Shown here: in pieces, positions 14,410 to 59,641 of the stretch
Layout: each line of letters starts with the position of its first letter
How positions within the stretch are numbered: the stretch's first letter is position 1
Virus record (IMG/VR): IMGVR_UViG_3300045988_179859
Reading direction: 5' to 3' (one strand)
DNA from: a virus
DNA: 64,000 nt
Position numbers and translations under genes: made by a program
The notes under the pieces: generated by a model
The model's input: only the letters and a program-made list of their open reading frames with translations
Database searches by the model: none
Told to the model about the DNA's origin: nothing

Positions 14410-14421
14410 AACACTACCTCC

Positions 14422-16611: not shown

Positions 16612-16620
16612 TAGGGGGCT

Positions 16621-26344: not shown

Positions 26345-26345
26345 T

Positions 26346-31109: not shown

Positions 31110-31134
31110 TGAAAATTTTCATCACTTTTTTTTC
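31100..31134 (+). terminator. rho-independent terminator
   Basis: agtgatgaaaattttcatcact followed by T8. Confidence 0.65.
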
Positions 31135-31142
31135 GCACCTCT

Positions 31143-31171
31143 TGACAAACGATTTCATATTTGCTAAACTT
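31143..31171 (+). promoter_or_regulatory. sigma-A promoter TTGACA-17-TGnTAAACT
   Basis: same architecture as the leader promoters. Confidence 0.5.
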
Positions 31172-31267
31172 ATTATTGTAAAAACTTGCCCAAAAATAAT
31201 TAACGAAGGAGAATATTATGGATCTCAATAGGAGGGCAGGCGAGATTCATGGTAGATCATTAGTCCA

Positions 31268-31654
31268 ATGAATTCATTATTGACTAGCATTTACACCGAG
31301 CTTCCTGTCGGTGCGTGGGATTTGACGTCATTCCTTACAAATGCCTATAAACAAGTTGGCGAATGGGGTAAACTTTTGCTAATGCTCTTGGGTATTATCT
31401 TGATCGTTGTATCAGGTGTTAAGATCTGGCGTAACTTCACAAGTGAAAGCGCACAACGTCAACCTCGTTGGGGTATGACTATTTGCGGATTGCTCGTAGG
31501 TGGTGCTCTCTCTATTTCATCAGGTTGGACACTCTTGAACGATATCGCTCAAGGTGGTCAAAAGACTATCCAAGATTTGGGTGGTGGTGCTATTGTATTC
31601 AGTAATATTGTGGCACATCCCGCTGAAGCTATTCGTGCTTTGATTAGCTTCTAA
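31268..31654 (+). CDS. small 2-TM membrane protein (VirB2/VirB3-like candidate)
   Basis: 128 aa with two hydrophobic helices. Confidence 0.5.
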   Translation: MNSLLTSIYTELPVGAWDLTSFLTNAYKQVGEWGKLLLMLLGIILIVVSGVKIWRNFTSESAQRQPRWGMTICGLLVGGALSISSGWTLLNDIAQGGQKTIQDLGGGAIVFSNIVAHPAEAIRALISF

Positions 31655-31765
31655 TAGTTAGTACGGGATTGAAAGGCTAGGTGAAGACCTAGTCTTTTTT
31701 TTTTGTTGTGAAGTTGAAATATTTGTGATATAATAAGTCTATGACAAAACAGAAAGGGTTTTAAT

Positions 31766-47138: not shown

Positions 47139-47192
47139 AAGGAATAGATTTATCAATATCTGTATTGCATGAATCTTGGGTAAAAGAGACCA

Positions 47193-49499
47193 ATGGCGGT
47201 ATTTGGTAAGAAAAGTTTATTTGCGCAATTACAATTTAATGAAACGGTTGCGGAGACGGTATACGATAATATTAAGGAATTGTATAACGATTCCGATCAA
47301 CGAGGCGCAATTGTTGAATATACAGATGGTGATCATAAGAACTATGTCATCATCGCAATGTTAGCTGATGACTTAGAAGCAGCTTTCGGTAAGAAATATA
47401 AGAAAAATGAGGAAGTTGGTTCTTTCTCTGCTTCTATTAACGATGGACTGATTCAAGCGGTTCTTGTTGAAGGGGATTTCGAGTCAGGAACTTTGGCTTT
47501 GATTCCAACAACAGATACGTTGGCGGATATGACGGAATGGTCATTTATCGAAAAAACGCCAATGCACATCGCGGTCGTAACTCCTGATTTTAATGCTAAA
47601 GATGGTGTTATTCTTCTGTCTGATACGGTTACGTTGAACGAATTGACAAATATTCGTAACGGACATATGACCATTAAAATTAAAAACGATGAAAACGGTG
47701 AACCTGATGAAGCAGAAATCATCAATCTTCACGAAGTTAAAGATGAACCTGTTTCTCGTGTAGAAGAAACGGTTGAAGAATCTGATGATTTGGGTTATGA
47801 TCCTGACGCTGATCCAGATGTTGAATATGATCCTGATTCAGATTATGACGAAGTTGAATCCGTTGAAGAATATTCAGAAGATCCTGTGTATGAAGAATCT
47901 CAATACGAAGGCGAACCCGTGTATGAGGATCCGGTCGATTACAACGATACCGTTGATTATAATGAACCGGCTTACGAACAACCAATGTTTGATCCTGAGC
48001 AAGACTTTGACCCGCAAGCATCCGTTGTAGAACAAGTACCTGTTGTCCAACCAGACGTTGAAAACTTAGTGGATATTCAAGAAGAATTGATCAAACAATT
48101 GAATTCTGATTCACTCGATATTGAAGTGTCAGATGAAGAATTCTATAAAGTATTTGGTCAAGATAATCATTCTGTAGAGTTATTCAATGAACAGCCTAAT
48201 GATCCGAATAATCACTTGGATCAACACGTTGCGCAAATGGCGAGCGTTGCAAATACAAGAATTCTTCGTTATTTAGATGAACGCACAAATACGCTTGCAA
48301 GTGAATATGTGTTAGCGCTTCGTACGTACGCTGATAAGCTTACGAAAACACTTGACTATCATGATGGTAATACGGAAGCGGGTCAAAAGTATAATGACAT
48401 TAAAGCAGAACGTGACCGTATTATTCAAACCATTTATATGGAACACGAAGCTAAGAAAGACGAAATTCAACGTGAATACGATGCACGCAAAGATAAATTT
48501 ATTGAAGAACGTAAGCTTCAAGCAGAACGTGAATTCGATGATGAAAATCGTGCACAATTAGCTAAAGATCTTGAATTAGATACGGCTAAACTTGAACTTG
48601 AAGGTCAAGATTATGAGTCTAAAGGTCTTCGTGAATTGCATACTCGTCGTCGTGATGTGGCTCGTGTATTCATGGAACGTGCGACTACAAACTTGTTGAT
48701 GCACTATCGTGATGAAATGGCGAAAGTTTATAAAGGTGTGAAAGAGTTGGCGCTTAGTGAAAGCAACCACATCAATCGTTACATCGAACAAAACTTTGCG
48801 TCAGAAGTTATGCGTGCAAATGCGATTCAAAAACAATTGGATATGCAAGCTGACCTTACAGCGTTGCAAGATAAGTTTAGCGCACAATTGCTTGAAAAGA
48901 ATGCTGAAATTGAAGCAATTCGTGATAAAGCGGCTTCTGATTATAAAGCTCTTGAAGAAAAATCATCATTCAATCTTCGCGATCTTAAGAAAGAATTGCA
49001 GGCTGAACTCGATGCTGAACGTGTGGTTAATAAAGAACTTCGTGCATCACTTGATCGTATGACTGAGAAATTCGAAACTCTTGAAGAGAAGAAAGAAGAA
49101 GAATATCGTCATCGTCTTAAAGTATCAGACGACCGTGCTGAAGCTCTTGAACGTCGTATCGATGCTCGTGAAAAAGACATCATTGTTGCAAATCGTAACC
49201 GTTGGATTGTTGCGGCATTAGCAGCACTTGCAACCGCTATCGGTGGTGTGATGATTACAGCTTATGTAATGAATCAAGCACAAGCAACTACAAATCATTC
49301 AGTTGAAACGCAAATTACGCAATTGAAACGTGATTTGGAAGATGCGAAGAAAGATGCGCAAACTGCTAAGACTGAAGCGAATAATGCTAAAACTGAAAGC
49401 AATACGAAGCAAGCTCAAATTGATAGCTTGACAAAAGCTCTCGGTGATCGTGCAAATCAAGCACAACCAAATGGGCAAAATCAACCAGCCCAACCCTAA
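47193..49499 (+). CDS. acidic coiled-coil protein with C-terminal TM (768 aa)
   Basis: Asp/Glu/Pro/Tyr-rich low-complexity region, long coiled coil, TM near the C terminus. Confidence 0.6.
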   Translation: MAVFGKKSLFAQLQFNETVAETVYDNIKELYNDSDQRGAIVEYTDGDHKNYVIIAMLADDLEAAFGKKYKKNEEVGSFSASINDGLIQAVLVEGDFESGTLALIPTTDTLADMTEWSFIEKTPMHIAVVTPDFNAKDGVILLSDTVTLNELTNIRNGHMTIKIKNDENGEPDEAEIINLHEVKDEPVSRVEETVEESDDLGYDPDADPDVEYDPDSDYDEVESVEEYSEDPVYEESQYEGEPVYEDPVDYNDTVDYNEPAYEQPMFDPEQDFDPQASVVEQVPVVQPDVENLVDIQEELIKQLNSDSLDIEVSDEEFYKVFGQDNHSVELFNEQPNDPNNHLDQHVAQMASVANTRILRYLDERTNTLASEYVLALRTYADKLTKTLDYHDGNTEAGQKYNDIKAERDRIIQTIYMEHEAKKDEIQREYDARKDKFIEERKLQAEREFDDENRAQLAKDLELDTAKLELEGQDYESKGLRELHTRRRDVARVFMERATTNLLMHYRDEMAKVYKGVKELALSESNHINRYIEQNFASEVMRANAIQKQLDMQADLTALQDKFSAQLLEKNAEIEAIRDKAASDYKALEEKSSFNLRDLKKELQAELDAERVVNKELRASLDRMTEKFETLEEKKEEEYRHRLKVSDDRAEALERRIDAREKDIIVANRNRWIVAALAALATAIGGVMITAYVMNQAQATTNHSVETQITQLKRDLEDAKKDAQTAKTEANNAKTESNTKQAQIDSLTKALGDRANQAQPNGQNQPAQP

Positions 49500-49502
49500 T
49501 TC

Positions 49503-49583
49503 GAAAACACTACCCAAAACACTAGTTGGACGTAAAAAATAAGTTCAGAAAACACTAGCTATCTGGGTAGTGTTTTTTTTTTG
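49503..49583 (+). repeat. three AAAACACTA(C/G) direct repeats embedded in a long inverted repeat (cactaccc … gggtagtg) plus T-run
   Basis: repeat copies at 49504, 49516 and 49549; 8-bp outer stem; T10. Confidence 0.5.
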
Positions 49584-49600
49584 CAAGCAAAGGTCAAAAA

Positions 49601-49610
49601 TGATATAATA
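49601..49610 (+). promoter_or_regulatory. extended -10 TGATATAATA only 6 nt upstream of ATG 49616 (leaderless mRNA candidate)
   Basis: no SD; -10 ends 5 nt before the start codon. Confidence 0.45.
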
Positions 49611-49615
49611 GAACC

Positions 49616-51481
49616 ATGAAAAGAACGAATGAATATGTAAAAGTTCCAAATGGAACGATGTTTTTCCCTAAGGTCTATTTGACGCGAGACGAAATTACGA
49701 ATATGTACGTTTACGGACACGTGCGTCCAAGTTGGTTTAAGTTGGTGCTTGTTGACGATTCGGAACTCGATGAAATTATAGCCGTAAATAAGCCTCTGAG
49801 ATCGTCTAAGGTTGAGGCATATAATCAGCTTGTCGCTCTCTCAAACGCTCGCTATGACGAAATGAGAGCCGATTTAGAACGTTTTGCAGATGGTTCGTTA
49901 GACTTGATGGATTTGTCGGTGAAATATTGGACTTATTTTAAAGATACTCGTAAGTTGTTTAAAGATGTTTTGACGGATGTCGATGTTGATTTCTTTTGGA
50001 AACAGCATAAAAAGCACAGTCAAAAAGAAACAACGATGCGAATCTATGGCGTAGAGCACACGACGCAGTTGGAGTCTAATCAAGAACTACGCAAGCAAAC
50101 GACTCGTCAAAAATATGGCGTAGATAACGTTATGCAGTTGGATTCTATTAAGCAAAAACAAAAGGAAACAATGCTTGAGAAATACGGTGCTGATCACAAT
50201 TTTAAGTTATCGGATGCGGTACGATCATGGAATAAGCATGTTTATGAGATCTTAAAAGAAGAATGGGCTGATGTTTTTGAAAAGTTAGGTGTTATGTCGG
50301 CACAAGATATTGCGTCCGTTTTGAATTTAAAAAGACGATCTTTTGTTTTATACGGCGACGACGAAATGGCGCTGATCTCTTTGTTAGAAGCGTGGGCGAA
50401 GATTAAAGGCGAACCTGTCGTCTATCCAACTAATGCGATGTTTCGATTAAATATGACGTTTACGTGCCCATGGTTAACACTTTATAGTAAGCGTGGTTTA
50501 GTTTCTGTTCCAGATGCATTTTTGAATACGTCAGCGTCACGTTATGAACAGATGGTTGCGAATTACTTAGACGAACTTGGTGTCGATTACGTTGCGAATC
50601 ATCGTAAGCTATTAAACGGATTAGAACTTGATTTCTATATTCCGTCTAAGAATCTCGCAATCGAAGTCAATCCGAACTGCTCACATAATAGTAATCTTTA
50701 TGCGACAGAACCTGAGCGTGTCTGTTACGGACACGTGCAAGAGGCTTTTTACCACTATAACAAGTACAAGTCAGCCGCTAAGAAGGGCATTACTTTGATT
50801 CACTTGTATGGTTACGATTTAGATCCTGTGGTATTCAACACGCGCACGAAAACACGCATTAAGCAACTTGTGAGTGGCTATTCTGTCCGATTATTTGCGA
50901 GAAACACTGTGATTAAAAAGGCCACGAAGCAAGCGGACAAGAAAAAAGCACGCGAATTTCTTAATGAATATCACGTGCAAGGTGCGAGTAGAGCATCTGT
51001 TTATTATCTAGTTTATAATGATTCTAATTTAGTGGCGGTTGCGTCTTTTGATATGAATAATCGTAATTTTGAATCGGAATTGAAGCGTTTGTGCGTGAAA
51101 CCGGATGTACAAATTGTGGGGCTAACGTCGAAGATTATTGCTCGTTTCTTTAAAGATTACGATATAGAAGAACTTTACAGTTATTCTGATAATAATATCG
51201 GTAATGGTTTGTCTTATCAGAAAGCAGGTGGCGTTTTGGTCAAGGAAACTGGTCCGTCACTCTTATTTAGTTCCTGGACAGATCCGACAGATGTTTATTC
51301 GTGGCAGATTGCGACACCATGGGGCGCGCGCGAGGGATTACTGTCGAAGTACGGTCAATTTGATTCGCAAGAGAAGATTGACCTGTTTGTCGAGACAGAA
51401 TTGCCTCACCGGACAGACGATAAGAAGGGCTATGACAGAATCTATACAGCTGGTTCTAAGCTGTGGTTATTTAAAAGATGA
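49616..51481 (+). CDS. Vsr/DUF559-like nuclease-fold protein with triplicated KYGxxHxxQL module
   Basis: LELDFYIPSKNLAIEVNPNCSH resembles the Vsr/DUF559 core; C-terminal domain paralogous to 55508-57064. Confidence 0.6.
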   Translation: MKRTNEYVKVPNGTMFFPKVYLTRDEITNMYVYGHVRPSWFKLVLVDDSELDEIIAVNKPLRSSKVEAYNQLVALSNARYDEMRADLERFADGSLDLMDLSVKYWTYFKDTRKLFKDVLTDVDVDFFWKQHKKHSQKETTMRIYGVEHTTQLESNQELRKQTTRQKYGVDNVMQLDSIKQKQKETMLEKYGADHNFKLSDAVRSWNKHVYEILKEEWADVFEKLGVMSAQDIASVLNLKRRSFVLYGDDEMALISLLEAWAKIKGEPVVYPTNAMFRLNMTFTCPWLTLYSKRGLVSVPDAFLNTSASRYEQMVANYLDELGVDYVANHRKLLNGLELDFYIPSKNLAIEVNPNCSHNSNLYATEPERVCYGHVQEAFYHYNKYKSAAKKGITLIHLYGYDLDPVVFNTRTKTRIKQLVSGYSVRLFARNTVIKKATKQADKKKAREFLNEYHVQGASRASVYYLVYNDSNLVAVASFDMNNRNFESELKRLCVKPDVQIVGLTSKIIARFFKDYDIEELYSYSDNNIGNGLSYQKAGGVLVKETGPSLLFSSWTDPTDVYSWQIATPWGAREGLLSKYGQFDSQEKIDLFVETELPHRTDDKKGYDRIYTAGSKLWLFKR

Positions 51482-51570
51482 GTCTTTTGCGAGACTCGCA
51501 AAAGTGCATGTTTGTGCGAAATCGGTGACGAAACTCGCAGAAATTTGCACTTTTTTTTGTAATCGTTTTA

Positions 51571-51580
51571 TGATATAATA
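51571..51580 (+). promoter_or_regulatory. element consensus extended -10 TGATATAATA
   Basis: upstream of the coupling-protein gene. Confidence 0.5.
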
Positions 51581-51636
51581 AGTCTATTGGGCAGAAAAGA
51601 TTATTTTAATGCCATTAGACAGAAAGGAAAACTTCA

Positions 51637-54600
51637 ATGGGGAAATTTAAAAATCCATTAAAAGTGAAACCTCAAACAGGTTATCAAAAAATGAAAAGTC
51701 TCCCGGTCGATCAATATGGTAAATATCGAGATCGTATCAATAGCCAACAAGCAGCTCGTAAGATTCGAAATACGCAAGGCTACGATTCGTCAAAGGTGTT
51801 TGGTTTGGTTGGCGGAATCGGGACGTTTATTTCAGGCTTAGGCGCTACGTGGGTAGTTTCGGTCATGTATCGAGCGATCAACGGGATGATGAATGGTAAA
51901 GGTTCATCTGCATTATCATCGGCGTCCATGTCGTTACCCTGGTGGGCGTGGCCTGTCAATCTATTAGTAGGGACTATGGTCGGATTTATCGTTTACGATA
52001 AATTCAAGAGGAAACAGAGCACAGATCGTATTTTAGATGAAGATGGTCAACTGAACGATTATACGTCAGACGGTCACGTTATGTATAAAGAAGAAATTGT
52101 AGAACGTTTTCCAGTTTTTCCTGACCGTGGTGCTCATAGTAGTGTGAAGCCGTCAGCTATTTTAAGCCATGCGTTTTTATCGAATAAAGGTGTTCCCGCG
52201 GTTATGATGACAAAACGTTATACCGCTGACGTTATTGTTCCAAACGAGGATGATCCTGAAGATTTTGAGATTTTTTATGAAGGTGAAGAGGTTCTTGATA
52301 GTGAGGGGAACCCAATCCTTGAAAAGAAACCGATGATCGATATGGATAAGGGTGGCGAAGTTTTCGATAAAATTAGTATTTTCGAAGGCAACCCTCAACG
52401 TGTATTCGATCATGCAAAAGAATTAGTGTTCGATAGTGAAGGTAAGGCTAGAGGTGACGACCAATCAGCTCCGTATAAGTCATTGATCGATATGATGAAC
52501 AATGATTGGGAGATTCCAGCTTACGAACGACAACGTCCAACGGGTGTCTATTTCGTTGATACAGCGCCGGTAAACGTTATGATTCTCGCTATTACTAGGG
52601 CTGGTAAGGGACAGACATATATTGAAGCGCTTCTTGACATGTGGACTCGGGAAAAACGGCAATGGAATATCGTAAACAATGACCCTAAAGGAGAGCTTCT
52701 TGTTAAGTTCTATGTGCGGGCAACTATTCGTGGATATGACATTGTACAGTTTAACTTGATCAATCCTATGAAGACGGATATCTTCAATCCTCTTGGTTAT
52801 GCGGTAGAAGCTGCGCGTGAAGGACGTATGGAGAAAGTTGCCGAGTATTTGACCAACTTGTCTTCTGTATTCTTCCCGAAAGATGGTGGTGAGGATCCGG
52901 TATGGCCTCAATCTGCGTCAGCTGCATTTGAACGTACTTGTCTTGCGCTTATTGACTTCTATCGAGAAGAAGAAATGGAAATGCGTCGTCGGGCAGAACT
53001 CGATGGGCGTAACGTTCACTTGCTTGATGCTGAAATTAATAACATGTGGGGTAAAGTAACGCTTTATAATGTGTTTAAGATGTTTTCAAGTTTGGTTTCT
53101 AAGAAAGAAACTGACCCGATGAAAACATGGGTTAAAGAAGAAGACAAGCCACCGACGGTTATTAACGATGAGACTGGTGAAGAAGTTCTTGATCCATCTG
53201 TTAAGCCAACTGAAAAAGTGTTGCTTGATTTGTTCTTCGATGCGACAGAAGCGTTGCCGAAAAACCGTATGCGCGATCTTTTGGACTCATCTAATAAGAC
53301 CTTGAAATCGATGATGCAAAGTGAAAAAATGCTTAGTTCTGTATACGGAATCGCTACAGCATCAATGCGTTTCTTCACTGACCCAACGATTATTGCCTTG
53401 ACTTCAGGTACAGCTTCTCAGAACTTTGACATTGAGTCACTGTCATTCCCACGTCGGGTGGCCGTTCGATTCACATCTGAGTGGATGGCTCGTTATAAAT
53501 ACGCTGGTAAGTTGGTTCGTTGGTCTGCATGGACAGATGATACCTTTACAGAAGAACTAGATCCGAAACTTTTTGGACATTCATTTAATATCGGTCGTGA
53601 TGGTTGGGTTCATTACGCCTTTGATGGTAAATTCGAAGGACGTGATGGCTATATTAAGATGGAAATCGTCAACCCTGATAATAATGTTCCGATGAAGATT
53701 TTCTATTTTAAAGCACGTCTTGATTATCTGACACGACTTGATGGTAAGTCCTTCATTAAGAATCCTGTTACGAAAGAGAAGATTCTTCGAAATGGTACTT
53801 TGACCGAATTGCGTCCGGTTAAAGATAAAGAAGGTCGTCGTAAGTTTGTTCCTCGTAACACTATGATTAAGAAGACGGTTAAAGATTTCCGTAATTATAG
53901 CGAGGGCGGACGTAATTTACGAGATAAGGAAATTGAAGTTCATGCGTTTTCTGATTTGAAATTGCGTTATACGGACAAACCGAAATTTGTAAACTTTATT
54001 ACACCTCCGCACTTGACGGCTTATGCTCGTTTGATTTTGATCTTGATTAAACAGGTTACAGACTCTGCGTTTTCTAGTGCGTATTTGACGAAGGCGAATC
54101 AAAAACCGCTTTATGGTACGAACTACATGTTAGACGAGTTGGGTAACTTGCAGTCGGACGGTCATGGTATTAACGACTTGGAAACACTTCTTTCTATCGG
54201 TTTGTCTGCCGATCAACGTTTCCACTTGATTCTGCAAACACTCCAACAGCTTGAAGCGGTTTATGGTGGTGATAAGAATAAGATTATCTCTGGTAACTCG
54301 AACGATTTGATCTTCTTGAAATCTAATGACGTAACGATGATTGATGATTTGGTTGCTGTTGCAGGTAAACGTCACGTTGAACGTGTTAATAGCTTGACGG
54401 TTTCTGAAAATACTCAATCGCGTGTTCAAAAGACAGACGGTCGTATTTCGAAAACGAAAACTGTGCTTGAAGAAGATGTTATTTCTCGAAATGAATTCTT
54501 GCGATTGGATAAGTTTGGTGCGATTGTAATGCGTGCGGGTGATGATCCTATTTATAACTATGGAGCATCATCTCTGCCTCCAGTATTTGCAATGCAAAAC

Positions 54601-55485
54601 GATACGATTCAAGAGCCTGGTGTAGAATATACACTTCAAACCATTCCAACTATGTCTTCTGTGTTGGAATTTGACCCAGAAAAGAATCAGCCGAACTTTT
54701 ATGCGATGCTTGAGAAACGTTTGTCGCAAGCCCGTTTAGTTGAAGAAATGGAAAGTAAGTATCGTGGAGCATACGGTTATAGTCAGCATGATATTGATAT
54801 TATGGATGCTGATGAGTATGCGCGTGACATTATGGATGCAGTTAATGATGAGCTTTATGAAATTGAACAAGATTACTTAGCTCAACATGAATTAGATGAT
54901 GAAATGACGTCTTCTGGTAATGCATCTGTTATGTATGAAAATATTGCTCGTGAACGTGAAGCTTCGATTACGGTTAATGTTGATTACGAAAAAGCTGTGA
55001 CGAAAGCTGAAAAAGAATTGGTTCCAGATTATCGTGAAAAAATCTATGCTGGCGGAATGGTTAGTCGTGATATGTTGGTTAGTCAACACGGTAAAGGTTT
55101 GAGTGGCGGTACTGGTATGGATGCTGTTGTTATTGAAGCTGTACTCAAGACTAAATCACAATTCATGGGTGACACTAAATTCCGTTGGGATGATGATAAA
55201 CAAATCTTGTCAAATGTGGCTGGTGTTCGATTTGTAAGTTATGATCCATCGGTTAAAGAATACGAAAAGAGTGCTCAAGACCCTAATTCGAAAGTCTATA
55301 TGGAAGCAACTGATGGTCTTGCTCTTGAGGGATACCGCGTTGAACCGGAGTTTTACGAATATCTTGCAAAATTAGATTCTTGGGAGTCTATTGCGGGCGG
55401 TTCGTTCGATAAGACCGTTCGTGATATTTGTAATCGTCGTGAAAATACGATTGACACCGATGCTCCTGAAGACGAAGAATTCTAA
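51637..55485 (+). CDS. type IV coupling protein (VirD4/TraG family), 1282 aa
   Basis: 2 N-terminal TM; Walker A AITRAGKGQT (compare VirD4 APTRSGKGVG); YMLDELGNL box. Confidence 0.85.
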   Translation: MGKFKNPLKVKPQTGYQKMKSLPVDQYGKYRDRINSQQAARKIRNTQGYDSSKVFGLVGGIGTFISGLGATWVVSVMYRAINGMMNGKGSSALSSASMSLPWWAWPVNLLVGTMVGFIVYDKFKRKQSTDRILDEDGQLNDYTSDGHVMYKEEIVERFPVFPDRGAHSSVKPSAILSHAFLSNKGVPAVMMTKRYTADVIVPNEDDPEDFEIFYEGEEVLDSEGNPILEKKPMIDMDKGGEVFDKISIFEGNPQRVFDHAKELVFDSEGKARGDDQSAPYKSLIDMMNNDWEIPAYERQRPTGVYFVDTAPVNVMILAITRAGKGQTYIEALLDMWTREKRQWNIVNNDPKGELLVKFYVRATIRGYDIVQFNLINPMKTDIFNPLGYAVEAAREGRMEKVAEYLTNLSSVFFPKDGGEDPVWPQSASAAFERTCLALIDFYREEEMEMRRRAELDGRNVHLLDAEINNMWGKVTLYNVFKMFSSLVSKKETDPMKTWVKEEDKPPTVINDETGEEVLDPSVKPTEKVLLDLFFDATEALPKNRMRDLLDSSNKTLKSMMQSEKMLSSVYGIATASMRFFTDPTIIALTSGTASQNFDIESLSFPRRVAVRFTSEWMARYKYAGKLVRWSAWTDDTFTEELDPKLFGHSFNIGRDGWVHYAFDGKFEGRDGYIKMEIVNPDNNVPMKIFYFKARLDYLTRLDGKSFIKNPVTKEKILRNGTLTELRPVKDKEGRRKFVPRNTMIKKTVKDFRNYSEGGRNLRDKEIEVHAFSDLKLRYTDKPKFVNFITPPHLTAYARLILILIKQVTDSAFSSAYLTKANQKPLYGTNYMLDELGNLQSDGHGINDLETLLSIGLSADQRFHLILQTLQQLEAVYGGDKNKIISGNSNDLIFLKSNDVTMIDDLVAVAGKRHVERVNSLTVSENTQSRVQKTDGRISKTKTVLEEDVISRNEFLRLDKFGAIVMRAGDDPIYNYGASSLPPVFAMQNDTIQEPGVEYTLQTIPTMSSVLEFDPEKNQPNFYAMLEKRLSQARLVEEMESKYRGAYGYSQHDIDIMDADEYARDIMDAVNDELYEIEQDYLAQHELDDEMTSSGNASVMYENIAREREASITVNVDYEKAVTKAEKELVPDYREKIYAGGMVSRDMLVSQHGKGLSGGTGMDAVVIEAVLKTKSQFMGDTKFRWDDDKQILSNVAGVRFVSYDPSVKEYEKSAQDPNSKVYMEATDGLALEGYRVEPEFYEYLAKLDSWESIAGGSFDKTVRDICNRRENTIDTDAPEDEEF

Positions 55486-55521
55486 AAAGAAAAACTCTAG
55501 CGAAATGCTAGAGTTTTTTTA
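55486..55521. terminator. bidirectional terminator shared by convergent genes
   Basis: A7, then actctagc-N5-gctagagt, then T7. Confidence 0.65.
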
Positions 55522-57064
55522 TGTAGCGAAGACTTCCTGTGTCGTACACGCGATAGTAATTTCGACTGCGCATGATTTCAATTTCGCTTAAGTTGCTATC
55601 AAAACCTTCTCGCACGAGTTTCTTTTTCGTTGTCTCATAGCGAGTTTTGCAATCGAATGTGTTACGCTGAACCCATACGTAATTCGGTGGCGTTATTCCG
55701 TCTAGAATAAAACCAGAGCGTTCGTATATGTTGGACACTGTAAAGCGCTTATTGAGGTCCATGTATGTGACGAGCGTTTCACCGTTTGTTGTATAGTGTT
55801 TTGTGAAGTACATTAGTAGCTTATCAAAGGCACCGTGCACGATATAGTGTGGATTGACACAATATCGGTATAGTTCCCACGTATGAGATGTAAATCTCGA
55901 TTTTCCACAAGTGAGCACGGCTATCAACTCGTCACCATAATACATACCGAAACGGTGAAGTGCGCTTTGATCTGCACCTTGGAAATGATAACGATTCAGA
56001 AATTTTTGAGAGGTTTTCTTGTCAATTTCTTTAACGATGCACTTGCGAGCACCGATTTTGGGTTTGTTTTCGGTGAGTGTTTGGATTCGTGTTTCGAGCG
56101 CTTTTAGCTTTTGAGTGCTCTGTAAGTCAGAATCGTAAATGTGGACGAGTGCGATCTTGTCTTTTAGTGCTTGTTGAGATTTGGCTTGATGGTAGTTTTT
56201 ATCCGTGAAGCCCCTTTTTGGATCATCGATGGTATGCGTCGATATGGGATTTACTTCGATGCCGAGGTTGTGATCGGGAAGCCAAATATCGATTTCCTGC
56301 TTGTTGGTTAAGAGATCACGTCGATTTAGTTGGTACTTAATATTGTTATCTTGTAAGATTTTCAGTACCGTTGCAACTTGGTTGGATGTACTTGTGGGTT
56401 TTACGAGATGATTGAGCTCATACGTGTTGAAATACCAAGACACGGTCGCGGGCGCGATATGGAGGTACTGTGCGAGATTACTTTTCGACGGTACTTCTTG
56501 GTGTTCGTTTATGTAATCGCGAATAGCGTTTAGGTAGCGAAGTCTGGTGGATTTTGCTTTACCGTGTAACTTCTCAGCGTCGATAAAGGCTTGATCGAGT
56601 TCTGATAAGTCATCTGTGAATTGTTTTTGGTAATGATGTTTCACCATTAATCGCTTCAGATTTTCTATTCGGATGCCGTATTTGCTCGCGACAGTGACTT
56701 TTGCGATGCCTTTATCGAGGTCTGTCGCGATGCTCGGCCAAAGCTCATCGTGTTTTCTTTCAAAATGTTTATGGACGTTTTCGCCACGAGTCCATGTGAC
56801 GCCTTCTTTTGCGAGGATTCGTGAGATGGCGCCATGGCTAACTTGAAAGCGCTTCGCTATCTCGTTGATTGTATAGCCATCATGATAGAGGTTCTGTATG
56901 GCTTGTGGGTCGAGATTTAGTGGTTGTTTTTCGATACCTAAATCTTTCAAGTATCTCGATACAGTGGCTGTTGATAGCTTTGTTTCGCGAGCGATTTCTT
57001 TTAAGGTTTTCTTTTGCGCGCGTAGCTTGCGCAACTCGCTCGCGAGGTTCTCTGTAAGTGGCAT
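55508..57064 (-). CDS. Vsr/DUF559-like nuclease-fold protein with N-terminal tandem HTH modules
   Basis: QEIDIWLPDHNLGIEVNPISTH core; C-terminal domain paralogous to 49616-51481. Confidence 0.65.
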   Translation of the reverse strand: MPLTENLASELRKLRAQKKTLKEIARETKLSTATVSRYLKDLGIEKQPLNLDPQAIQNLYHDGYTINEIAKRFQVSHGAISRILAKEGVTWTRGENVHKHFERKHDELWPSIATDLDKGIAKVTVASKYGIRIENLKRLMVKHHYQKQFTDDLSELDQAFIDAEKLHGKAKSTRLRYLNAIRDYINEHQEVPSKSNLAQYLHIAPATVSWYFNTYELNHLVKPTSTSNQVATVLKILQDNNIKYQLNRRDLLTNKQEIDIWLPDHNLGIEVNPISTHTIDDPKRGFTDKNYHQAKSQQALKDKIALVHIYDSDLQSTQKLKALETRIQTLTENKPKIGARKCIVKEIDKKTSQKFLNRYHFQGADQSALHRFGMYYGDELIAVLTCGKSRFTSHTWELYRYCVNPHYIVHGAFDKLLMYFTKHYTTNGETLVTYMDLNKRFTVSNIYERSGFILDGITPPNYVWVQRNTFDCKTRYETTKKKLVREGFDSNLSEIEIMRSRNYYRVYDTGSLRYIKKL

Positions 57065-57170
57065 GTGATCGTCCTTTCTATATAGTTATTTTATCATAAA
57101 ATTCGTTCAAGTTCTATTATGGCACGAAACTTGTTCGTGCTTTTTTGGGTGTTGCGTTTGAGATGATTGT

Positions 57171-57180
57171 ATGGTATAAT
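57171..57180 (+). promoter_or_regulatory. extended -10 TGGTATAAT
   Basis: upstream of the adhesin gene. Confidence 0.45.
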
Positions 57181-57217
57181 TCTTTTATATTAGTCTTGAA
57201 AGGAATCTTTTAAAGTA

Positions 57218-59602
57218 ATGAAAAAAAATTTATTTAAAGTAACTACTTGTGCGATGCTCGCTACGACTGCATTCGGATTCGCTGCTCCTTTAGCGCAACC
57301 CTTGACTGTTTTCGCTGATGAGGTCGTTGCAAATGCTACGACTGTGAAATCTTATGCAGAACTCGTGAACAAGGCTCGTAAAGCGGGTATTCAAGTTACG
57401 GAACTGCCTGAAAAAGTCTTTACAAATAAAGCTGATTATGACAAGCATGTAAGTGAACAAATTAAAATTTTGGAAGATGCGATTGCGCGTCAAGGATCGG
57501 TTGATACTACGAATTCTAAAGCTAAAGAAGCATTAGAAAAATATAATGCGGAGTTAAAAGCTTATAATGAGCAAATGGACGCTCGTAAAAAAGCGATTGC
57601 TGAATATCCGACTAAGAAAAAAGATTATGAAGGTAAATCAGCAACATACGAGGCTGAGAAAAAAGCGTATGAAGCTAAATTAGCTGAATATAATAAGGCT
57701 TTAGATGAAGCTACTAAAAATGCTAAAAAAGATGGTTATTTGAGTCAACCTGAAAGTCAAGATTTGATTTTCAAACGTGAACCAAATGCTAAATTGTCTG
57801 TTTCAGGTAACACTATTTATTTGGATGCTGCTGATGCTGTAGGTGGTATGGGCGTTATTAATGCTTCAGCCGGACGCCATATTGCGGCTGGTCATCAACG
57901 CAATACGATTCAGTGGCAAACTGTAAATAACCCAGGTGCTGTTGGTGGTGGATCTGGTGAATCCGGTCAAACACAAGCAACGGTTCTAGGTTTAGAACAA
58001 GGTAAGACTACAACTGTTACTTATGATGGTCTTCAAAATTCAACGTTTAAAGGTCGTAAAATTTCTAAGGTTGTTTATGACTATACGCTTGAAAGCTCAC
58101 CTTCAAATGATAATACAGTGACAGCGGTTGTTTATCAAGACCCAACGATTACGATTTACTTTGGTACAAATCGTGATAAACAAGGTGTTGATACGAAGAT
58201 TCGTATGAAAGCCACATTCTATTATGAAGACGGTTCTAAAGTTAATTTAGCTGATGGTAGTGCTTTGTTTAGTTTTGCAAGTTTGAACTATACGAATCAA
58301 GGTTTTAATGAGCAAGAATATGTTGGTGTAACTGATTCAATTCAACCTATTCAAATTACAGGTTCATCTATTGTGTACAAAGATGGCAAACTTGGTGCTA
58401 CATCTTCTAATAACACGAAGAGCGAAGGATCTAAGTTTGAACGTGGTGAGTGGGATTCGACGGCTGATAATCCAAATTCTTACTATGGTGCGGGTGCCGC
58501 AAAAGCAACAGCTAAAGCGGCCGCTGGTTCTGTAGAATTTATTATTGGTAACCATCCAACAGCGAATCCTGCGCGTGGAACTCAACGTCAATGGTTCCAA
58601 TTTAATTCTGAAGTGCGTTCAAATACGTTACCGCCAAAACCGCAGGCTCCTGTTCCGTTTAATGGTGAAGTTCCACAAGATCCCTCTAAGACGCCAGAGC
58701 CTAAGAAACCAGAAGCACCAAAACCTGTTGATGGATCACCTTTGGCTGTTCAAGTAACACCGGGTCGTTTGCAAGAACCTGAAAAACCGGCTGATCCTGA
58801 AAAACCTGCTGAAAAAGTGATTACGAAACACATCGATATCACAACCGGAAAAGAAATTTCTAAACAAGAAGACGGTAAACAGCCTAAGAAAGATATTCCT
58901 GGTTATGAATTCGTTGAAACGAAAGACGAAGGTGGAAACACAATCCACTATTATAAGCCAGTCGAAAAACCTGCTGAAAAAGTGATTACGAAACATATCG
59001 ACATCACGACTGGAAAAGAAATCTCTAAACAAGAAGATGGTAAACAACCTAAGAAGGATATTCCAGGTTATGAATTCGTTGAAACGAAAGACGAAGGTGG
59101 AAACACAATCCACTATTATAAGCCAGTCGAAAAACCTGCTGAAAAAGTGATTACGAAACATATCGACATCACGACTGGAAAAGAAATCTCTAAACAAGAA
59201 GATGGTAAACAACCTAAGAAGGATATTCCAGGTTATGAATTCGTTGAAACGAAAGACGAAGGTGGAAACACAGTTCACTACTACAAACCTGTCGAAAAGC
59301 CTTCTGAGAAAGTAATTACGAAACACATCGATATCACAACCGGAAAAGAAATTTCTAAACAAGAAGATGGTAAACAACCTAAGAAAGATATTCCCGGTTA
59401 TGAATTCGTTGAAACGAAAGACGAAGGTGGAAATACGATCCACTATTATAAACCAGTCGAAAAGAAAGAAACACCTAAAGAATTGCCTAAGACTAGTGAG
59501 CAATCTAAACAACGTACAACTGCGGTTCTCGGATTGTTGTCAGTTGTAGGACTTGGTGGTTTAGTAACTTACTTTGACCTTCGTAAACGTGACGAAAACT
59601 AA
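57218..59602 (+). CDS. cell-surface adhesin-like protein with 4 tandem 62-aa repeats and an LPKTS-type sorting signal
   Basis: signal peptide; LPKTS, then hydrophobic stretch, then RKRDEN at the C terminus. Confidence 0.85.
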   Translation: MKKNLFKVTTCAMLATTAFGFAAPLAQPLTVFADEVVANATTVKSYAELVNKARKAGIQVTELPEKVFTNKADYDKHVSEQIKILEDAIARQGSVDTTNSKAKEALEKYNAELKAYNEQMDARKKAIAEYPTKKKDYEGKSATYEAEKKAYEAKLAEYNKALDEATKNAKKDGYLSQPESQDLIFKREPNAKLSVSGNTIYLDAADAVGGMGVINASAGRHIAAGHQRNTIQWQTVNNPGAVGGGSGESGQTQATVLGLEQGKTTTVTYDGLQNSTFKGRKISKVVYDYTLESSPSNDNTVTAVVYQDPTITIYFGTNRDKQGVDTKIRMKATFYYEDGSKVNLADGSALFSFASLNYTNQGFNEQEYVGVTDSIQPIQITGSSIVYKDGKLGATSSNNTKSEGSKFERGEWDSTADNPNSYYGAGAAKATAKAAAGSVEFIIGNHPTANPARGTQRQWFQFNSEVRSNTLPPKPQAPVPFNGEVPQDPSKTPEPKKPEAPKPVDGSPLAVQVTPGRLQEPEKPADPEKPAEKVITKHIDITTGKEISKQEDGKQPKKDIPGYEFVETKDEGGNTIHYYKPVEKPAEKVITKHIDITTGKEISKQEDGKQPKKDIPGYEFVETKDEGGNTIHYYKPVEKPAEKVITKHIDITTGKEISKQEDGKQPKKDIPGYEFVETKDEGGNTVHYYKPVEKPSEKVITKHIDITTGKEISKQEDGKQPKKDIPGYEFVETKDEGGNTIHYYKPVEKKETPKELPKTSEQSKQRTTAVLGLLSVVGLGGLVTYFDLRKRDEN
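58776..59475 (+). repeat. 4 tandem 186-bp repeats (copies 2 and 3 identical)
   Basis: PVEKPAEKVITKHIDITTGKEISKQEDGKQPKKDIPGYEFVETKDEGGNTIHYYK repeated four times. Confidence 0.85.
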
Positions 59603-59640
59603 AAAAAATAAAAGATACTCGTAAGAGTATCTTTTTTTTA
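59603..59640. terminator. bidirectional terminator aaagatactc-gtaa-gagtatcttt (copy of 3783-3816)
   Basis: A8, then stem, then T8. Confidence 0.7.
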
Positions 59641-59641
59641 A

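What the first reader, a model, noticed from the sequence alone, without database searches (positions are those of the whole stretch)
49616..57064. Two paralogous Vsr/DUF559-like nuclease-fold genes in inverted orientation bracketing the coupling-protein gene
Both proteins share a core of the form LxExGxxYxxNxRxLLxxxExD(F/I)(Y/W)(I/L)PxxNL(A/G)IEVNPxxxH. This is the Vsr/DUF559 PD-(D/E)xK pattern with NP replacing the usual DG. They also share a C-terminal domain of about 200 aa (FLN(E/R)YH(V/F)QGA…, possibly GNAT-like). Their N-terminal DNA-binding parts are unrelated: three KYGxxHxxQL modules in one and tandem HTHs in the other. One gene looks leaderless. Their arrangement around virD4 resembles invasive homing-endonuclease-like selfish genes or a recombination cassette.
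Basis: partly seen in the sequence, partly recalled or inferred. Interest (0 to 1): 0.55.

Follow-up and report, generated by a model that had tools for sequence, protein, structure and literature searches.

The report
Hef-type homing endonuclease genes flanking T4CP
Two distantly related selfish-nuclease genes of a family known from large phages (Hef-type homing endonucleases: a Vsr-like nuclease fused to a phage-Mu-Mom-like domain) sit on either side of the DNA-transfer motor gene of a conjugative element from human mouth bacteria, and in related elements their cousins lie inside introns that interrupt that same gene.

Summary
ORF A (49616-51481, +, 621 aa) and ORF B (55508-57064, -, 518 aa) bracket a 1282-aa T4SS coupling protein gene. 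They share 32% identity over 253 aa (E 1e-24).

The shared part has two domains:
- A GNAT domain closest to phage Mu Mom. Mom residues H58, E108, R111 and Y159 are invariant in the family.

The N-termini differ: KYG (DUF7487) repeats in A, tandem HTHs in B. Both match PHROG "homing endonuclease" families and phage "Hef-like" genes. The family is huge (about 12,500 representatives) but nearly absent from sequenced plasmids.

Insertion polymorphism exists. A occurs only in the window's own clade, and B is missing from the two more distant relatives. In other relatives an A-class gene lies among group I intron-like sequence beside the T4CP Walker A codons. B-class genes lie inside a group II intron at codon ~569.

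Both genes are under purifying selection (dN/dS about 0.1). No DNA inverted repeats support a recombination cassette.

Verdict: free-standing Hef-type homing endonuclease genes. This is a new member of a known kind in an unusual host replicon. No cleavage or homing was tested.

The parts
49581..49609 (+). Promoter of gene A: -35 TTGCAA, 17-nt spacer, TG-extended -10 TATAAT. It ends 6 nt before the ATG, so a leaderless mRNA is plausible.
   Evidence: Promoter scan; sequence read. The same TGATATAAT box recurs upstream of T4CP.
49616..51481 (+). Gene A, 621 aa: a free-standing Hef-type homing endonuclease gene. Layout: N-terminal region, three KYG/DUF7487 modules, Vsr-like EDxHD nuclease, Mom-like GNAT domain.
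   Evidence: ORF. phrog_3339 'homing endonuclease' E 4e-55 and phrog_559 E 4e-39. Absent from L005, L007, L011, L013 and L015. dN/dS 0.08-0.10.
50021..50236 (+). A aa 136-207: three KYG(V/A)xH/NxxQL modules (Pfam DUF7487), the presumed DNA-binding repeats.
   Evidence: Pfam DUF7487 E 7e-11. The same repeats occur in the HEG that splits T4CP in L005/L007.
50528..50890 (+). A aa ~305-425: Vsr-like (EDxHD-type) nuclease domain. Invariant residues are E337, D339, E350, H357, Y379, H380 and K383; N352 is nearly invariant.
50903..51478 (+). A aa ~430-621: Mom-like GNAT domain (FLNEYHVQGA...). It keeps the equivalents of Mom H58, E108, R111, S124, D149 and Y159. The position of Mom R151 is N.
   Evidence: Alignment with phage Mu Mom; weak Pfam/NCBIfam GNAT hits.
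51484..51504 (.). Hairpin immediately downstream of A (terminator-like).
   Evidence: Terminator scan.
51571..51579 (+). TGATATAAT extended -10 box of the T4CP promoter. It corresponds to the promoter that directly follows the p768 terminator in the A-less relative L011.
   Evidence: Sequence comparison of the window with the L011 empty site; 22-nt motif shared with the B promoter (I3).
51637..55485 (+). Type IV coupling protein (T4CP/VirD4-like) gene, 1282 aa, uninterrupted here. In relatives it is interrupted near M315-L317 (~52581-52587), at G325|Q326 (52611|52612, Walker A), at S568|V569 (53340|53341) and at M577|R578 (53367|53368).
   Evidence: Pfam; tBLASTn mapping of the exons in L005, L007, L009, L020 and L021.
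55490..55518 (.). Bidirectional terminator hairpin between the convergent T4CP and B genes. The stop codon of B lies inside its stem.
   Evidence: Terminator scan and sequence; inverted repeat I5.
55508..57064 (-). Gene B, 518 aa: a free-standing Hef-type homing endonuclease gene. Layout: tandem HTH modules, Vsr-like EDxHD nuclease, Mom-like GNAT domain.
   Evidence: ORF. phrog_3339 E 2e-67 and phrog_559 E 6e-57. tBLASTn to 'Hef-like homing endonuclease' genes of Campylobacter phages. Absent from L013 and L015. dN/dS 0.10-0.14.
56810..57043 (-). B aa 8-85: two helix-turn-helix modules (a third lies at aa 177-209), the presumed sequence-specific DNA-binding part.
   Evidence: Pfam HTH_7 and HTH_38, E 3e-11 each; AF2 model is all-helical across aa 5-214.
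56075..56395 (-). B aa 224-330: Vsr-like nuclease domain. D259, N272 and H277 align to I-Bth0305I D196, N208 and H213; the YHxxK motif lies at 291-295.
   Evidence: Profile A1 against PDB: 3R3P E 1.6e-4, with the alignment shown; invariant columns; core alignment.
55511..56062 (-). B aa 335-518: Mom-like GNAT domain. H360, E397, R400 and Y447 are invariant and correspond to Mom H58, E108, R111 and Y159. The position of Mom S124 is D414 and that of R151 is N438.
57072..57096 (-). Expression signals of B: extended -10 TGATAAAAT (57096-57088) and Shine-Dalgarno AAAGGA (57077-57072).
   Evidence: Sequence read on the minus strand.

Best explanation
**What they are.** A and B are two divergent, independently inserted, free-standing homing endonuclease genes of the Hef type. 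Each protein has three parts:
- a variable sequence-reading N-terminus (KYG/DUF7487 repeats in A, tandem HTHs in B);
- a Vsr-like nuclease of the EDxHD kind, as in I-Bth0305I;
- a C-terminal GNAT domain homologous to phage Mu Mom.

They sit just outside the two ends of an intron-less coupling-protein (T4CP) gene, on a large conjugative plasmid-like element from the human oral microbiome.

**Proposed mechanism.**
1. A related element that lacks the gene comes to share a cell with this one, for example after conjugation.
2. The endonuclease binds a long target in or next to the T4CP gene of the naive element and cuts it.
3. Recombinational repair uses the endonuclease-bearing element as template. 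This copies the endonuclease gene, and probably flanking T4CP markers, into the cut element.

The essential, conserved T4CP gene would play the role that nrd, DNA polymerase and recA genes play for phage homing endonucleases.

**The Mom-like domain.** It either helps grip or flip a base in the target, or modifies adenines so that the carrier's own site is immune.

**Shown versus inferred.**
- Shown: the domain identities and folds, intact catalytic residues, purifying selection, presence/absence polymorphism, and intron-borne cousins at fixed sites inside T4CP.
- Inferred: the cleavage itself, the target site, the homing event, and the role of the Mom-like domain.
For: **Family assignment**
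- PHROG homing-endonuclease families phrog_3339 and phrog_559 match with E 4e-55 to 2e-67.
- tBLASTn finds 364-387 phage records and 849-949 places. These are annotated as homing endonuclease, Hef-like or F-Lim, with about 10 copies per Campylobacter phage genome.
- Taylor et al. 2011 place Hef-type endonucleases in the Vsr-like EDxHD family (PMC3239194). Hef of phage U5 is cited as an endonuclease that cleaves nrdB (PMC2988022).

**Nuclease**
- The profile hit to 3R3P aligns D259, N272 and H277 with D196, N208 and H213.
- E-x-D, E-x-N, H and YHxxK are invariant across 41 sequences.
- Distant homologues carry Pfam Vsr or DUF559 hits.

**Mobility**
- A is present in the window and L016-L018, and absent from L005, L007, L011, L013 and L015. 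L011 shows a clean empty site.
- B is absent from L013 and L015.
- B stays glued to the T4CP 3' end, 22-24 nt away, while the genes on its other side differ among relatives.
- dS of B is discordant with its neighbours: 0.46 against 0.81 in L016, and 2.3 against 1.27 in L011.

**T4CP as target**
- In L020 an A-class gene (43% identical) sits between T4CP aa 318 and 317. Its flanks are homologous to group I introns.
- In L005/L007 a KYG-repeat EDxHD gene splits T4CP exactly at Walker A, GKG|QT.
- In L009, L020 and L021 a B-class gene lies inside a group II intron at aa ~568/569.
- Distant T4CP homologues carry LAGLIDADG inteins.

**Function maintained**
- dN/dS is 0.08-0.14, like the neighbouring genes.
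- Each gene has its own promoter and terminator.
Against: - No biochemical or genetic test of cleavage or homing exists for A, B or any close relative. The target site is unknown.
- B occupies the same position in clades whose T4CPs differ by dS > 1 and is still under purifying selection. That is more than a purely selfish element at fixation should show, and it hints at a benefit to the carrier or at ongoing exchange.
- The absence of B in L013 and L015 occurs in a different downstream gene context, so no precise empty site could be defined for B.
- The last acidic residue of the EDxHD motif (I-Bth0305I D222) aligns with an invariant histidine (B H292), so the active site is not identical to the prototype.
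- The original Hef sequence (phage U5) and paper could not be obtained. The link to the one experimentally studied Hef therefore rests on database annotation and on Taylor et al.
- Two of the three residues essential in Mom are not conserved (R151 is N; S124 is D in B), so the function of the GNAT domain is open.
- The host, and whether co-resident related elements really meet, are unknown. A genome-contig scan found nothing.
Confidence: 0.7

Rival explanations
1. **Momylation-type restriction-modification or competition module.** The Mom-like domain hypermodifies adenines in the element's own DNA. The fused REase-fold nuclease cuts unmodified DNA of incoming phages, competing plasmids or the recipient chromosome. 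On this reading the genes are weapons or defence rather than homing elements.
For: - Iyer et al. 2021 predict exactly this for the Mom-REase fusions of jumbo phages (PMC7824862).
- The Mom-family relationship is real: Mom H58, E108, R111 and Y159 are invariant and D149 is mostly kept.
- Purifying selection and long retention of B at one locus.
- Mom is now known to modify dsDNA (PMC13219725).
Against: - Mom-essential R151 is N in A, B and 24 of 35 family members. S124 is D in B.
- The variable multi-module DNA-binding N-termini, and many divergent copies per phage genome, are the hallmark of long-site homing enzymes.
- Cousins sit inside group I and group II introns at fixed positions in one conserved gene. 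This is homing behaviour, not defence-island behaviour.
- PADLOC gives no match for the nuclease or GNAT parts.
- The two readings are not exclusive: modification could serve as self-immunity for a homing enzyme.
Confidence: 0.17
2. **Domesticated DNA-binding regulators or accessory factors of conjugation.** The HTH or KYG modules would regulate T4CP or adhesin transcription, or assist DNA processing at transfer. The nuclease and GNAT parts would be vestigial or repurposed.
For: - A JGI source names a B orthologue 'predicted transcriptional regulator'.
- Position next to T4CP is conserved across clades.
- The B and T4CP promoters share a 22-nt motif.
- Purifying selection.
Against: - Selection preserves the nuclease catalytic residues and the GNAT active-site residues, not only the DNA-binding parts.
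- A is dispensable: it is absent in five relatives that have the same transfer gene set. B is absent in two.
- Homologues are overwhelmingly phage- and intron-borne.
Confidence: 0.08
3. **Recombination or inversion cassette, or composite transposon.** The two inverted paralogues would act as recombination substrates that invert or mobilise the T4CP gene between them.
For: - Only the inverted orientation of two paralogous genes around T4CP.
Against: - At the DNA level the sole shared inverted repeat is 50 nt at 72% complementarity, inside homologous coding sequence. That is far too diverged for homologous recombination.
- A and B were acquired separately: B is present without A in L005, L007 and L011.
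- T4CP has the same orientation relative to its neighbours in every relative.
- No recombinase is present.
Confidence: 0.02
4. **Vsr/DUF559-type repair endonucleases.** The genes would be very-short-patch mismatch repair enzymes partnering the C5 cytosine methyltransferase encoded elsewhere in the window.
For: - The nuclease fold is closest to Vsr.
- A C5 DNA methylase gene lies at 3814-4947.
Against: - Neither A nor B reaches Pfam Vsr or DUF559 by sequence.
- They are 3-4 times larger than Vsr, with added DNA-binding and GNAT domains.
- They lie about 45 kb from the methylase.
- Their sequence relatives are homing endonucleases.
Confidence: 0.02

Closest known systems
Hef-type ('homing endonuclease-like function') free-standing endonucleases of T4-like, ViI-like and Campylobacter phages (prototype Hef of phage U5; F-LimIII/VII/VIII/X of LIMEstone1; CP8/CP30A/CP81 Hef-like genes; PHROG 3339 and 559)
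   Same: - Same overall architecture over most of the length: variable DNA-binding N-terminus, Vsr-like nuclease, Mom-like GNAT.
- Strong profile matches (E 4e-55 to 2e-67).
- tBLASTn alignments cover B aa 122-516.
- They are free-standing genes next to conserved essential genes.
   Different: - The host replicon is a conjugative plasmid-like element of Gram-positive type, not a virulent phage. Only 1 of 72,556 plasmid records has any homologue of B, and none has a homologue of A.
- Identity to phage members is only 22-32%.
- The neighbouring gene is a T4SS coupling protein.
- Direct comparison with the experimentally studied U5 Hef could not be made.
I-Bth0305I and the EDxHD family of Vsr-like homing endonucleases (PDB 3R3P; Taylor et al. 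2011, PMC3239194)
   Same: - It is the best PDB sequence-profile hit.
- Conserved D, N and H at matching positions, including the 'IEVN(G/P)xxxH' strand.
- An N-terminal modular DNA-binding region.
- Relatives are encoded in group I introns in conserved ATPase genes.
   Different: - I-Bth0305I is 266 aa, has NUMOD-type modules and has no GNAT domain.
- The final Asp of EDxHD (D222) aligns with an invariant His in the A/B family.
- A and B are free-standing here.
- The 410-aa gene that splits T4CP in L005/L007 (KYG repeats plus nuclease, no GNAT) is architecturally closer to I-Bth0305I than A and B are.
Phage Mu Mom (PDB 8BV8), a tRNA-dependent adenine-N6 DNA hypermodifying GNAT; and the 'Mom fused to REase-fold nuclease' proteins of jumbo phages described by Iyer et al. 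2021
   Same: - The C-terminal domain is the best Foldseek match to Mom.
- Mom H58, E108, R111 and Y159 are invariant; D149 and W181 are mostly kept.
- The fusion to a restriction-endonuclease-fold domain matches the Iyer et al. description.
   Different: - Mom-essential R151 is Asn. S124 is kept in A but is Asp in B.
- Mom is a stand-alone 241-aa enzyme regulated by Com.
- No modification has been shown for any fused member.
- Neither Pfam nor NCBIfam recognises the domain as Mom.
Free-standing endonucleases that target intron-insertion sites or split essential genes: F-CphI/psbA in cyanophages, and T4 mobE with trans-homing of the I-TevIII intron (PMC2790892)
   Same: - A free-standing endonuclease gene lies immediately beside a conserved gene which, in relatives, carries introns (with or without the endonuclease ORF) at fixed sites.
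- Both the free-standing state and the intron-borne state of the same endonuclease class are seen.
   Different: - These precedents involve phages and GIY-YIG, HNH or other nuclease families.
- Here the two states are found in different elements. It is unknown whether A or B still recognises the intron-insertion sites.
- The F-CphI comparison rests on my own knowledge; that paper was not read here.

Membership tests
EDxHD (Vsr-like) homing endonuclease family | Catalytic domain with the Vsr-type variant of the PD-(D/E)xK fold | tested here: met
   [not shown]
EDxHD (Vsr-like) homing endonuclease family | Composite active-site motif E...D...x(N)...H...D (I-Bth0305I E170, D196, N208, H213, D222) | tested here: inconclusive
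   - D196, N208 and H213 correspond to B D259, N272 and H277 (A D339, N352 and H357). They are invariant or nearly invariant.
- D222 aligns with an invariant His (B H292, in YHxxK) rather than Asp.
- The upstream Glu is not clearly conserved: B has Q where A has E.
EDxHD (Vsr-like) homing endonuclease family | N-terminal modular sequence-specific DNA-binding region | tested here: met
   B has three HTH modules. A has three DUF7487 KYG modules. These differ from the NUMOD modules of I-Bth0305I.
EDxHD (Vsr-like) homing endonuclease family | Site-specific double-strand cleavage of the endonuclease-less allele, and homing | not testable with these tools
   Only indirect evidence is available: presence/absence polymorphism and intron-borne relatives at fixed T4CP sites.
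Hef-type phage homing endonucleases | Significant sequence similarity over nuclease plus C-terminal domain to phage proteins classed as Hef-like | tested here: met
   - phrog_3339: A 4e-55, B 2e-67. phrog_559: A 4e-39, B 6e-57.
- tBLASTn to genes annotated 'Hef-like homing endonuclease' or 'F-LimVIII'.
Hef-type phage homing endonucleases | Similarity to the experimentally characterised Hef of phage U5 | not tested
   The U5 Hef sequence and the Sandegren et al. 2005 paper were not available. The link is by annotation and by Taylor et al. 2011.
Mom family of GNAT DNA-modifying enzymes | GNAT fold closest to Mom | tested here: met
   [not shown]
Mom family of GNAT DNA-modifying enzymes | Residues essential for Mom catalysis (R111, S124, R151), plus H58, Y59, D149 and Y159 | tested here: inconclusive
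   - R111, H58 and Y159 (and E108) are invariant in 35/35 sequences.
- D149 is kept in A, B and 30/35.
- S124 is kept in A, but is D in B (S in 15/35).
- R151 is N in A, B and 24/35.
- Y59 is F, L or V (residue roles from PMC13219725).
Mom family of GNAT DNA-modifying enzymes | Adenine N6 hypermodification of dsDNA | not testable with these tools
   Requires nucleoside mass spectrometry or modification-sensitive sequencing of DNA from cells that express A or B.
Vsr (PF03852) / DUF559 (PF04480) repair-type endonucleases | Match to the Pfam family model above threshold; small single-domain protein | tested here: not met
   - No Vsr or DUF559 hit for A or B at E <= 1. Only some distant homologues carry these Pfam hits.
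- A and B are 518-621 aa multidomain proteins.
Intron-encoded homing endonuclease (group I or group II intron ORF) | Gene embedded in a catalytic intron RNA that interrupts a host gene | tested here: not met
   - No Rfam match at E <= 1 anywhere in window 47000-59700.
- T4CP is a single 1282-aa ORF.
- The flanks of A and B show no similarity to the relatives' introns.
- The feature is met by cousins in L009, L020 and L021.
Known anti-phage defence systems (PADLOC) | Match of the effector domains to a defence-system model | tested here: not met
   A has no hit. B hits only through its HTH (mad1, CARF-HTH models).

The most novel reading that the evidence does not exclude
A and B may be trans-acting homing endonucleases that still recognise the T4CP sites where their cousins' introns sit. 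Those sites are around the Walker A codons (~315-326) for the A class and codon ~569 for the B class. The fused Mom-like domain would modify adenines in those very sites on the carrier's own intron-less T4CP gene. That would make each protein a homing endonuclease with a built-in antidote, in effect a one-polypeptide, long-site restriction-modification unit. If so, this family of conjugative elements captures both stages of the birth of mobile introns: a free-standing endonuclease beside its target, and the same endonuclease class inside a group I or group II intron at that target. It would also be the first group II introns known to me to carry an EDxHD/Mom-type endonuclease instead of a reverse transcriptase or a LAGLIDADG protein.
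Probability: 0.12. Interest if true: 0.8.

Novelty: new member of a known kind. Interest (0 to 1): 0.5.

Why it matters
**An unusual host replicon.** Homing endonuclease genes are textbook parasites of phage, organelle and intron DNA, but they are hardly documented in conjugative plasmids. In the 72,556-plasmid collection, B has one distant homologue and A has none. Yet in this family of large oral-microbiome elements the coupling-protein gene is a hotspot for them. It carries free-standing genes at both ends (this window), endonuclease genes among group I intron-like sequence at or next to the Walker A codons, group II introns that enclose the endonuclease gene, and inteins in distant homologues. 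This suggests that co-resident conjugative elements compete by homing much as co-infecting phages do. It also suggests that transfer-gene alleles can spread by co-conversion.

**A model for how mobile introns form.** The same data set offers natural paired states, free-standing and intron-borne, for two endonuclease classes in one gene. That is the situation invoked in models of how mobile introns arise.

**Linking two literatures.** The work ties together studies that describe the same protein family under different names: Hef/EDxHD homing endonucleases, and Mom-REase 'momylation' fusions. It raises a testable question: is the Mom-like domain a self-immunity device?

**Practical use.** Long-site nucleases with modular HTH or KYG readers are candidate genome-engineering reagents.

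Tried and rejected
**Searches that led nowhere**
- Megablast of 47000-60000 against plasmids and phages gave no match, so no annotated near-relative exists.
- tBLASTn of A against plasmids gave no match. B gave one distant Tsukamurella hit.
- A T4CP scan of one genome per species (genome contigs) confirmed no relative, so no host could be named.
- Single-sequence phmmer of B against PDB found nothing useful. The profile search was needed.
- The original Hef paper (PMC1275590) is not held.
- No tRNA genes are in the window.
- NCBIfam gives only generic HTH or weak GNAT hits.

**Introns**
- Rfam on the split T4CP region of L005 at E <= 1 found no intron. Whether that insertion is a spliced group I intron or a true gene split is unresolved. 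Its 5' flank is 73-77% similar to the L009 group I intron-like sequence.

**Ideas considered and rejected**
- 'Inocle' identity for the element was rejected because Inocles have 24-32% GC and this window has about 40%.
- Co-conversion or mosaicism in T4CP next to A or B: the identity profile shows lower identity at both ends of T4CP, but the same pattern appears against every relative. It therefore reflects domain constraint, not a conversion tract.
- The duplicated TGATATAAT box on both sides of A was considered as a target-site duplication. It was rejected as over-interpretation, because it is the element's common extended -10 promoter motif and is also used by B.
- The recombination cassette, Vsr repair and known-defence-system readings were rejected.

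Full report
**1. What is in the window**

The finding's coordinates are exact.
- ORF A runs 49616-51481 on the + strand (621 aa).
- A 1282-aa ORF runs 51637-55485 on the + strand.
- ORF B runs 55508-57064 on the - strand (518 aa).

The middle gene is a type IV secretion coupling protein (T4CP). It matches Pfam T4SS-DNA_transf, TrwB_AAD_bind and TraG-D_C. Its length is normal for a widespread family of 1230-1360-aa T4CPs from Actinobacteria and Firmicutes.

The window as a whole looks like a Gram-positive conjugative plasmid-like element. It encodes:
- an actin-like partition protein and a topoisomerase;
- a lysozyme/CHAP cell-wall hydrolase and a MobL relaxase;
- a ClpB-like AAA protein and GbpC/SSSPR and flotillin surface or membrane proteins;
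- a D5-type primase and a C5 methylase.

Exact-protein look-ups place it on 82-120-kb contigs from human oral metagenomes. Relatives lie on contigs up to 230-300 kb. No host could be named. GC content of about 40% argues against the recently described 'Inocle' elements, which have 24-32% GC.

**2. The two proteins are paralogues with a two-domain shared core**

BLASTP aligns A305-548 with B224-461 at 32% identity, E = 1e-24. There is no third copy in the window.

*Nuclease half*
- A profile of 35 family members has the I-Bth0305I homing endonuclease catalytic domain (3R3P) as its best PDB hit, E 1.6e-4. B D259, N272 and H277 fall on D196, N208 and H213 of that enzyme.
- Across 41 sequences from both subfamilies and distant homologues, the invariant residues in A numbering are E337, D339, E350, H357, Y379, H380 and K383. 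N352 is nearly invariant.
More distant members, and I-Bth0305I itself, have 'N-G'.

*C-terminal half*
- The best Foldseek match is phage Mu Mom (8BV8, E 2.6e-5).
- Aligned with the Mu Mom sequence, Mom H58, E108, R111 and Y159 are invariant in all 35 family members. D149 and W181 are mostly kept. S124 is kept in A but is Asp in B. R151 is Asn in both.
- Mom is a tRNA-dependent enzyme that modifies adenine N6 in dsDNA, and R111, S124 and R151 are essential for it (PMC13219725).

*N-terminal halves*

They are unrelated. A has three KYG modules (Pfam DUF7487). B has three HTH modules.

**3. The family is known, under two names**

- Both proteins match PHROG families annotated as homing endonuclease (phrog_3339 at 4e-55 and 2e-67; phrog_559).
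- tBLASTn finds 364-387 phage genomes with 849-949 copies. These are annotated 'Hef-like homing endonuclease', 'F-LimVIII' and similar, with about ten copies per Campylobacter phage genome.
- Hef of phage U5 is cited as a distinct endonuclease that cleaves nrdB (PMC2988022).
- Taylor et al. explicitly added 'Hef type homing endonucleases' to the Vsr-like EDxHD family defined by I-Bth0305I (PMC3239194).
[quoted passage not shown] They predicted a modification-plus-restriction function (PMC7824862).
- An exhaustive phmmer search with B's nuclease-plus-GNAT region finds 12,481 cluster representatives at E <= 1e-10. The top hits cover both domains and sit at the C-terminus of proteins of roughly 450-650 aa with varied N-termini.

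So the protein kind is not new. What is unusual is the replicon. Among 72,556 plasmid records, B has one distant homologue and A has none.

**4. Are they mobile? Presence and absence in relatives**

| Locus | T4CP vs window | A | B |
|---|---|---|---|
| L016-L018 (B 91-94% identical) | intact | present | present |
| L011 | 78%, intact | absent | present (61%) |
| L005, L007 | 81-83% (C-terminal part), split | absent | present (60-62%) |
| L015 | 55% | absent | absent |
| L013 | 49% | absent | absent |

- In L011 the p768 terminator is followed by the T4CP promoter within 133 nt.
- In the window about 2 kb sits between the p768 terminator and the T4CP promoter. It carries A with its own promoter and a hairpin.
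- B is always 22-24 nt from the T4CP stop codon, convergent with it. Its own stop codon lies inside a shared bidirectional terminator. The genes on its other side differ between relatives. B is therefore linked to T4CP and not to its other neighbour.
- IS605/IS607-type elements have also landed in these intergenic spaces in L016-L018.

**5. The T4CP gene is a homing hotspot, and cousins of A and B are intron-borne there**

- *L005 and L007.* The T4CP gene is interrupted exactly in the Walker A motif...AITRAGKG | QTYIEAL... The interrupting 410-aa gene has KYG repeats and an EDxHD-type core ('VDYYV...IELNGHVAHN') but no GNAT domain.
- *L009.* The same site holds an ORF-less sequence with a full-length group I intron match (RF00028, 48.3 bits against a cutoff of 50, E 5e-10).
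- *L020.* An A-class gene (43% identical to A, full length) lies between T4CP residues 318 and 317, a few codons upstream of that site. Its 5' flank is homologous to this intron family, including a bona fide group I intron in L021 (60.6 bits).
- *L009, L020 and L021.* A B-class gene (42-44% identical to B in L009 and L021; 33% in L020, where it is broken into two ORFs) is bracketed by a group II intron D1-D4 match upstream and a domain V match downstream. The intron interrupts T4CP between residues ~568 and 569.
- *Decay.* Some of these intron-borne copies are decaying. P0066-type proteins lack the E-x-D segment, and the L020 copy is split into two ORFs.
- *Distant homologues.* Some distant T4CP homologues carry LAGLIDADG inteins.
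- *The window.* T4CP is intron-less at every one of these sites. No intron RNA is detectable anywhere in 47000-59700 at E <= 1. The flanks of A and B have no similarity to the relatives' introns. A and B are therefore free-standing.

**6. Are they functional?**

Nei-Gojobori dN/dS against relatives:

| Gene | dN/dS | dS |
|---|---|---|
| A | 0.083-0.095 | 0.31-0.71 |
| B | 0.097-0.139 | 0.27 to >2 |
| T4CP | 0.018-0.127 | |
| p768 | 0.035-0.19 | |

- No stop codons occur in any orthologue. All catalytic residues are intact.
- dS of B is discordant with its neighbours. It is lower than T4CP against L016 (0.46 against 0.81) and higher against L011 (2.3 against 1.27, saturated). This fits exchange of B alleles between lineages but is only suggestive.
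- A has a strong extended -10 promoter ending 6 nt before its ATG, so a leaderless transcript is plausible. B has an extended -10 box and a Shine-Dalgarno sequence.

**7. Best explanation and rivals**

The best-supported reading (confidence about 0.7) is that A and B are free-standing Hef-type homing endonuclease genes, inserted independently at the two ends of the T4CP gene.
1. They would cut a long site in or next to T4CP in related elements that lack them, when the two elements share a cell.
2. They would then be copied in by recombinational repair.
3. T4CP would serve as the conserved 'safe harbour', the role that nrd, polymerase and recA genes play in phages.

The rivals:
- *Momylation restriction-modification or competition module (0.17).* This is the main rival, from Iyer et al. 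It explains the Mom-like domain and the long retention of B. It fits poorly with the modular long-site readers, the intron-borne cousins at fixed sites, the loss of Mom R151 and the absence of PADLOC matches. The two readings can be combined: modification as self-immunity for a homing enzyme that sits next to an uninterrupted target.
- *Domesticated regulator or conjugation accessory role (0.08).* It is weakened because A and B are dispensable in relatives and because selection preserves the enzymatic residues.
- *Recombination cassette (0.02).* It is contradicted by the lack of DNA-level inverted repeats and by separate acquisition of the two genes.
- *Vsr-type repair (0.02).* It is contradicted by the architecture and by the lack of a Pfam match.

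**8. Novelty and limits**

- The protein family and its nuclease fold are known. The Mom-REase fusion has been noted before.
- The finding is a new member of a known kind in an unusual setting, a conjugative element rather than a phage.
- The surrounding comparative picture is probably the more publishable observation, but it lies in related loci and not in this window. It comprises a transfer gene riddled with group I and group II introns in relatives, group II introns that carry this endonuclease type, and free-standing and intron-borne states of both classes.
- Nothing here demonstrates cleavage, a target site, homing, splicing or DNA modification. These are the decisive experiments.

Noticed in passing
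L009 7205-17513 (relative; T4CP region): The T4CP gene is broken into at least six collinear pieces by two group II introns (5' GTGCG; RF02004 and RF00029 hits) and at least five copies of a related ORF-less or ORF-bearing intervening sequence. The copies share modules that are 70-86% identical. Twice a group II intron is followed by a micro-exon of about 30 nt ('LLAMTRAGKG', 'IVYGIAITAM') and then a second intervening sequence. One copy matches the group I intron model at 48.3 bits (cutoff 50).
   Followed up: partly
L009 ~9391-12796; L020 ~14180-17069; L021 ~8381-15066: Three independent loci have a group II intron (D1-D4 and domain V matches) at the same T4CP site, aa ~568/569. Each encloses a B-class EDxHD/Mom-type endonuclease gene rather than a reverse transcriptase. 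The L021 intron spans about 6.6 kb and also holds cargo ORFs (DUF2130, a redoxin). A 250-aa ORF of unknown family follows the endonuclease gene in L009 and L021 (68% identical).
   Followed up: partly
L005 14555-16040 (-) and L007 14445-15935 (-): T4CP is split exactly within the Walker A motif (GKG|QT) by a 410-aa gene with KYG repeats and an EDxHD-type core but no GNAT domain. Rfam finds no intron at E <= 1, although the 5' flank resembles the L009 group I intron-like sequence. Whether the gene is spliced or truly split is unresolved.
   Followed up: partly
window 311-388 (+): Match to the skipping-rope sRNA family (RF02924), 54.1 bits against a gathering score of 36.7.
   Followed up: no
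L016 7570-8884; L017 7781-9743; L018 4715-6677: IS605-type (TnpB) and IS607-type (serine resolvase plus TnpB) elements are inserted in the same intergenic spaces next to T4CP: between A and T4CP in L016, and between B and the GbpC adhesin gene in L017 and L018. These spacers therefore collect several kinds of mobile DNA.
   Followed up: no
window 57218-59602 (+): The GbpC-type surface adhesin has four or more near-identical SSSPR-51 repeats and an LPXTG-like C-terminal anchor region. Its length varies among close relatives (794, 739, 465 and 410 aa), which suggests variation in repeat number.
   Followed up: no
P0158, P0166, P0173, P0194 (distant T4CP homologues, ~1590-1600 aa): Some members of the long T4CP family carry a LAGLIDADG_3 (PF14528) domain, which points to inteins in the coupling protein. 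This is a third kind of homing element in the same gene family.
   Followed up: no
window 51566-51587 (+) and 57080-57101 (-); also 49596-49609 (+): The promoters of T4CP and B share a 22-nt motif, TTTTATGATA(T/A)AATAA..., at 86%. Gene A uses the same TGATATAAT extended -10 box, so the inserted genes use the element's own promoter style.
   Followed up: partly
window 24377-33190 and 39181-41040 (+): Several large ORFs in the transfer region (655, 1587, 474 and 619 aa) have no Pfam match at E <= 0.001. The conserved 768-aa acidic coiled-coil protein upstream of A (47193-49499) also has none.
   Followed up: no
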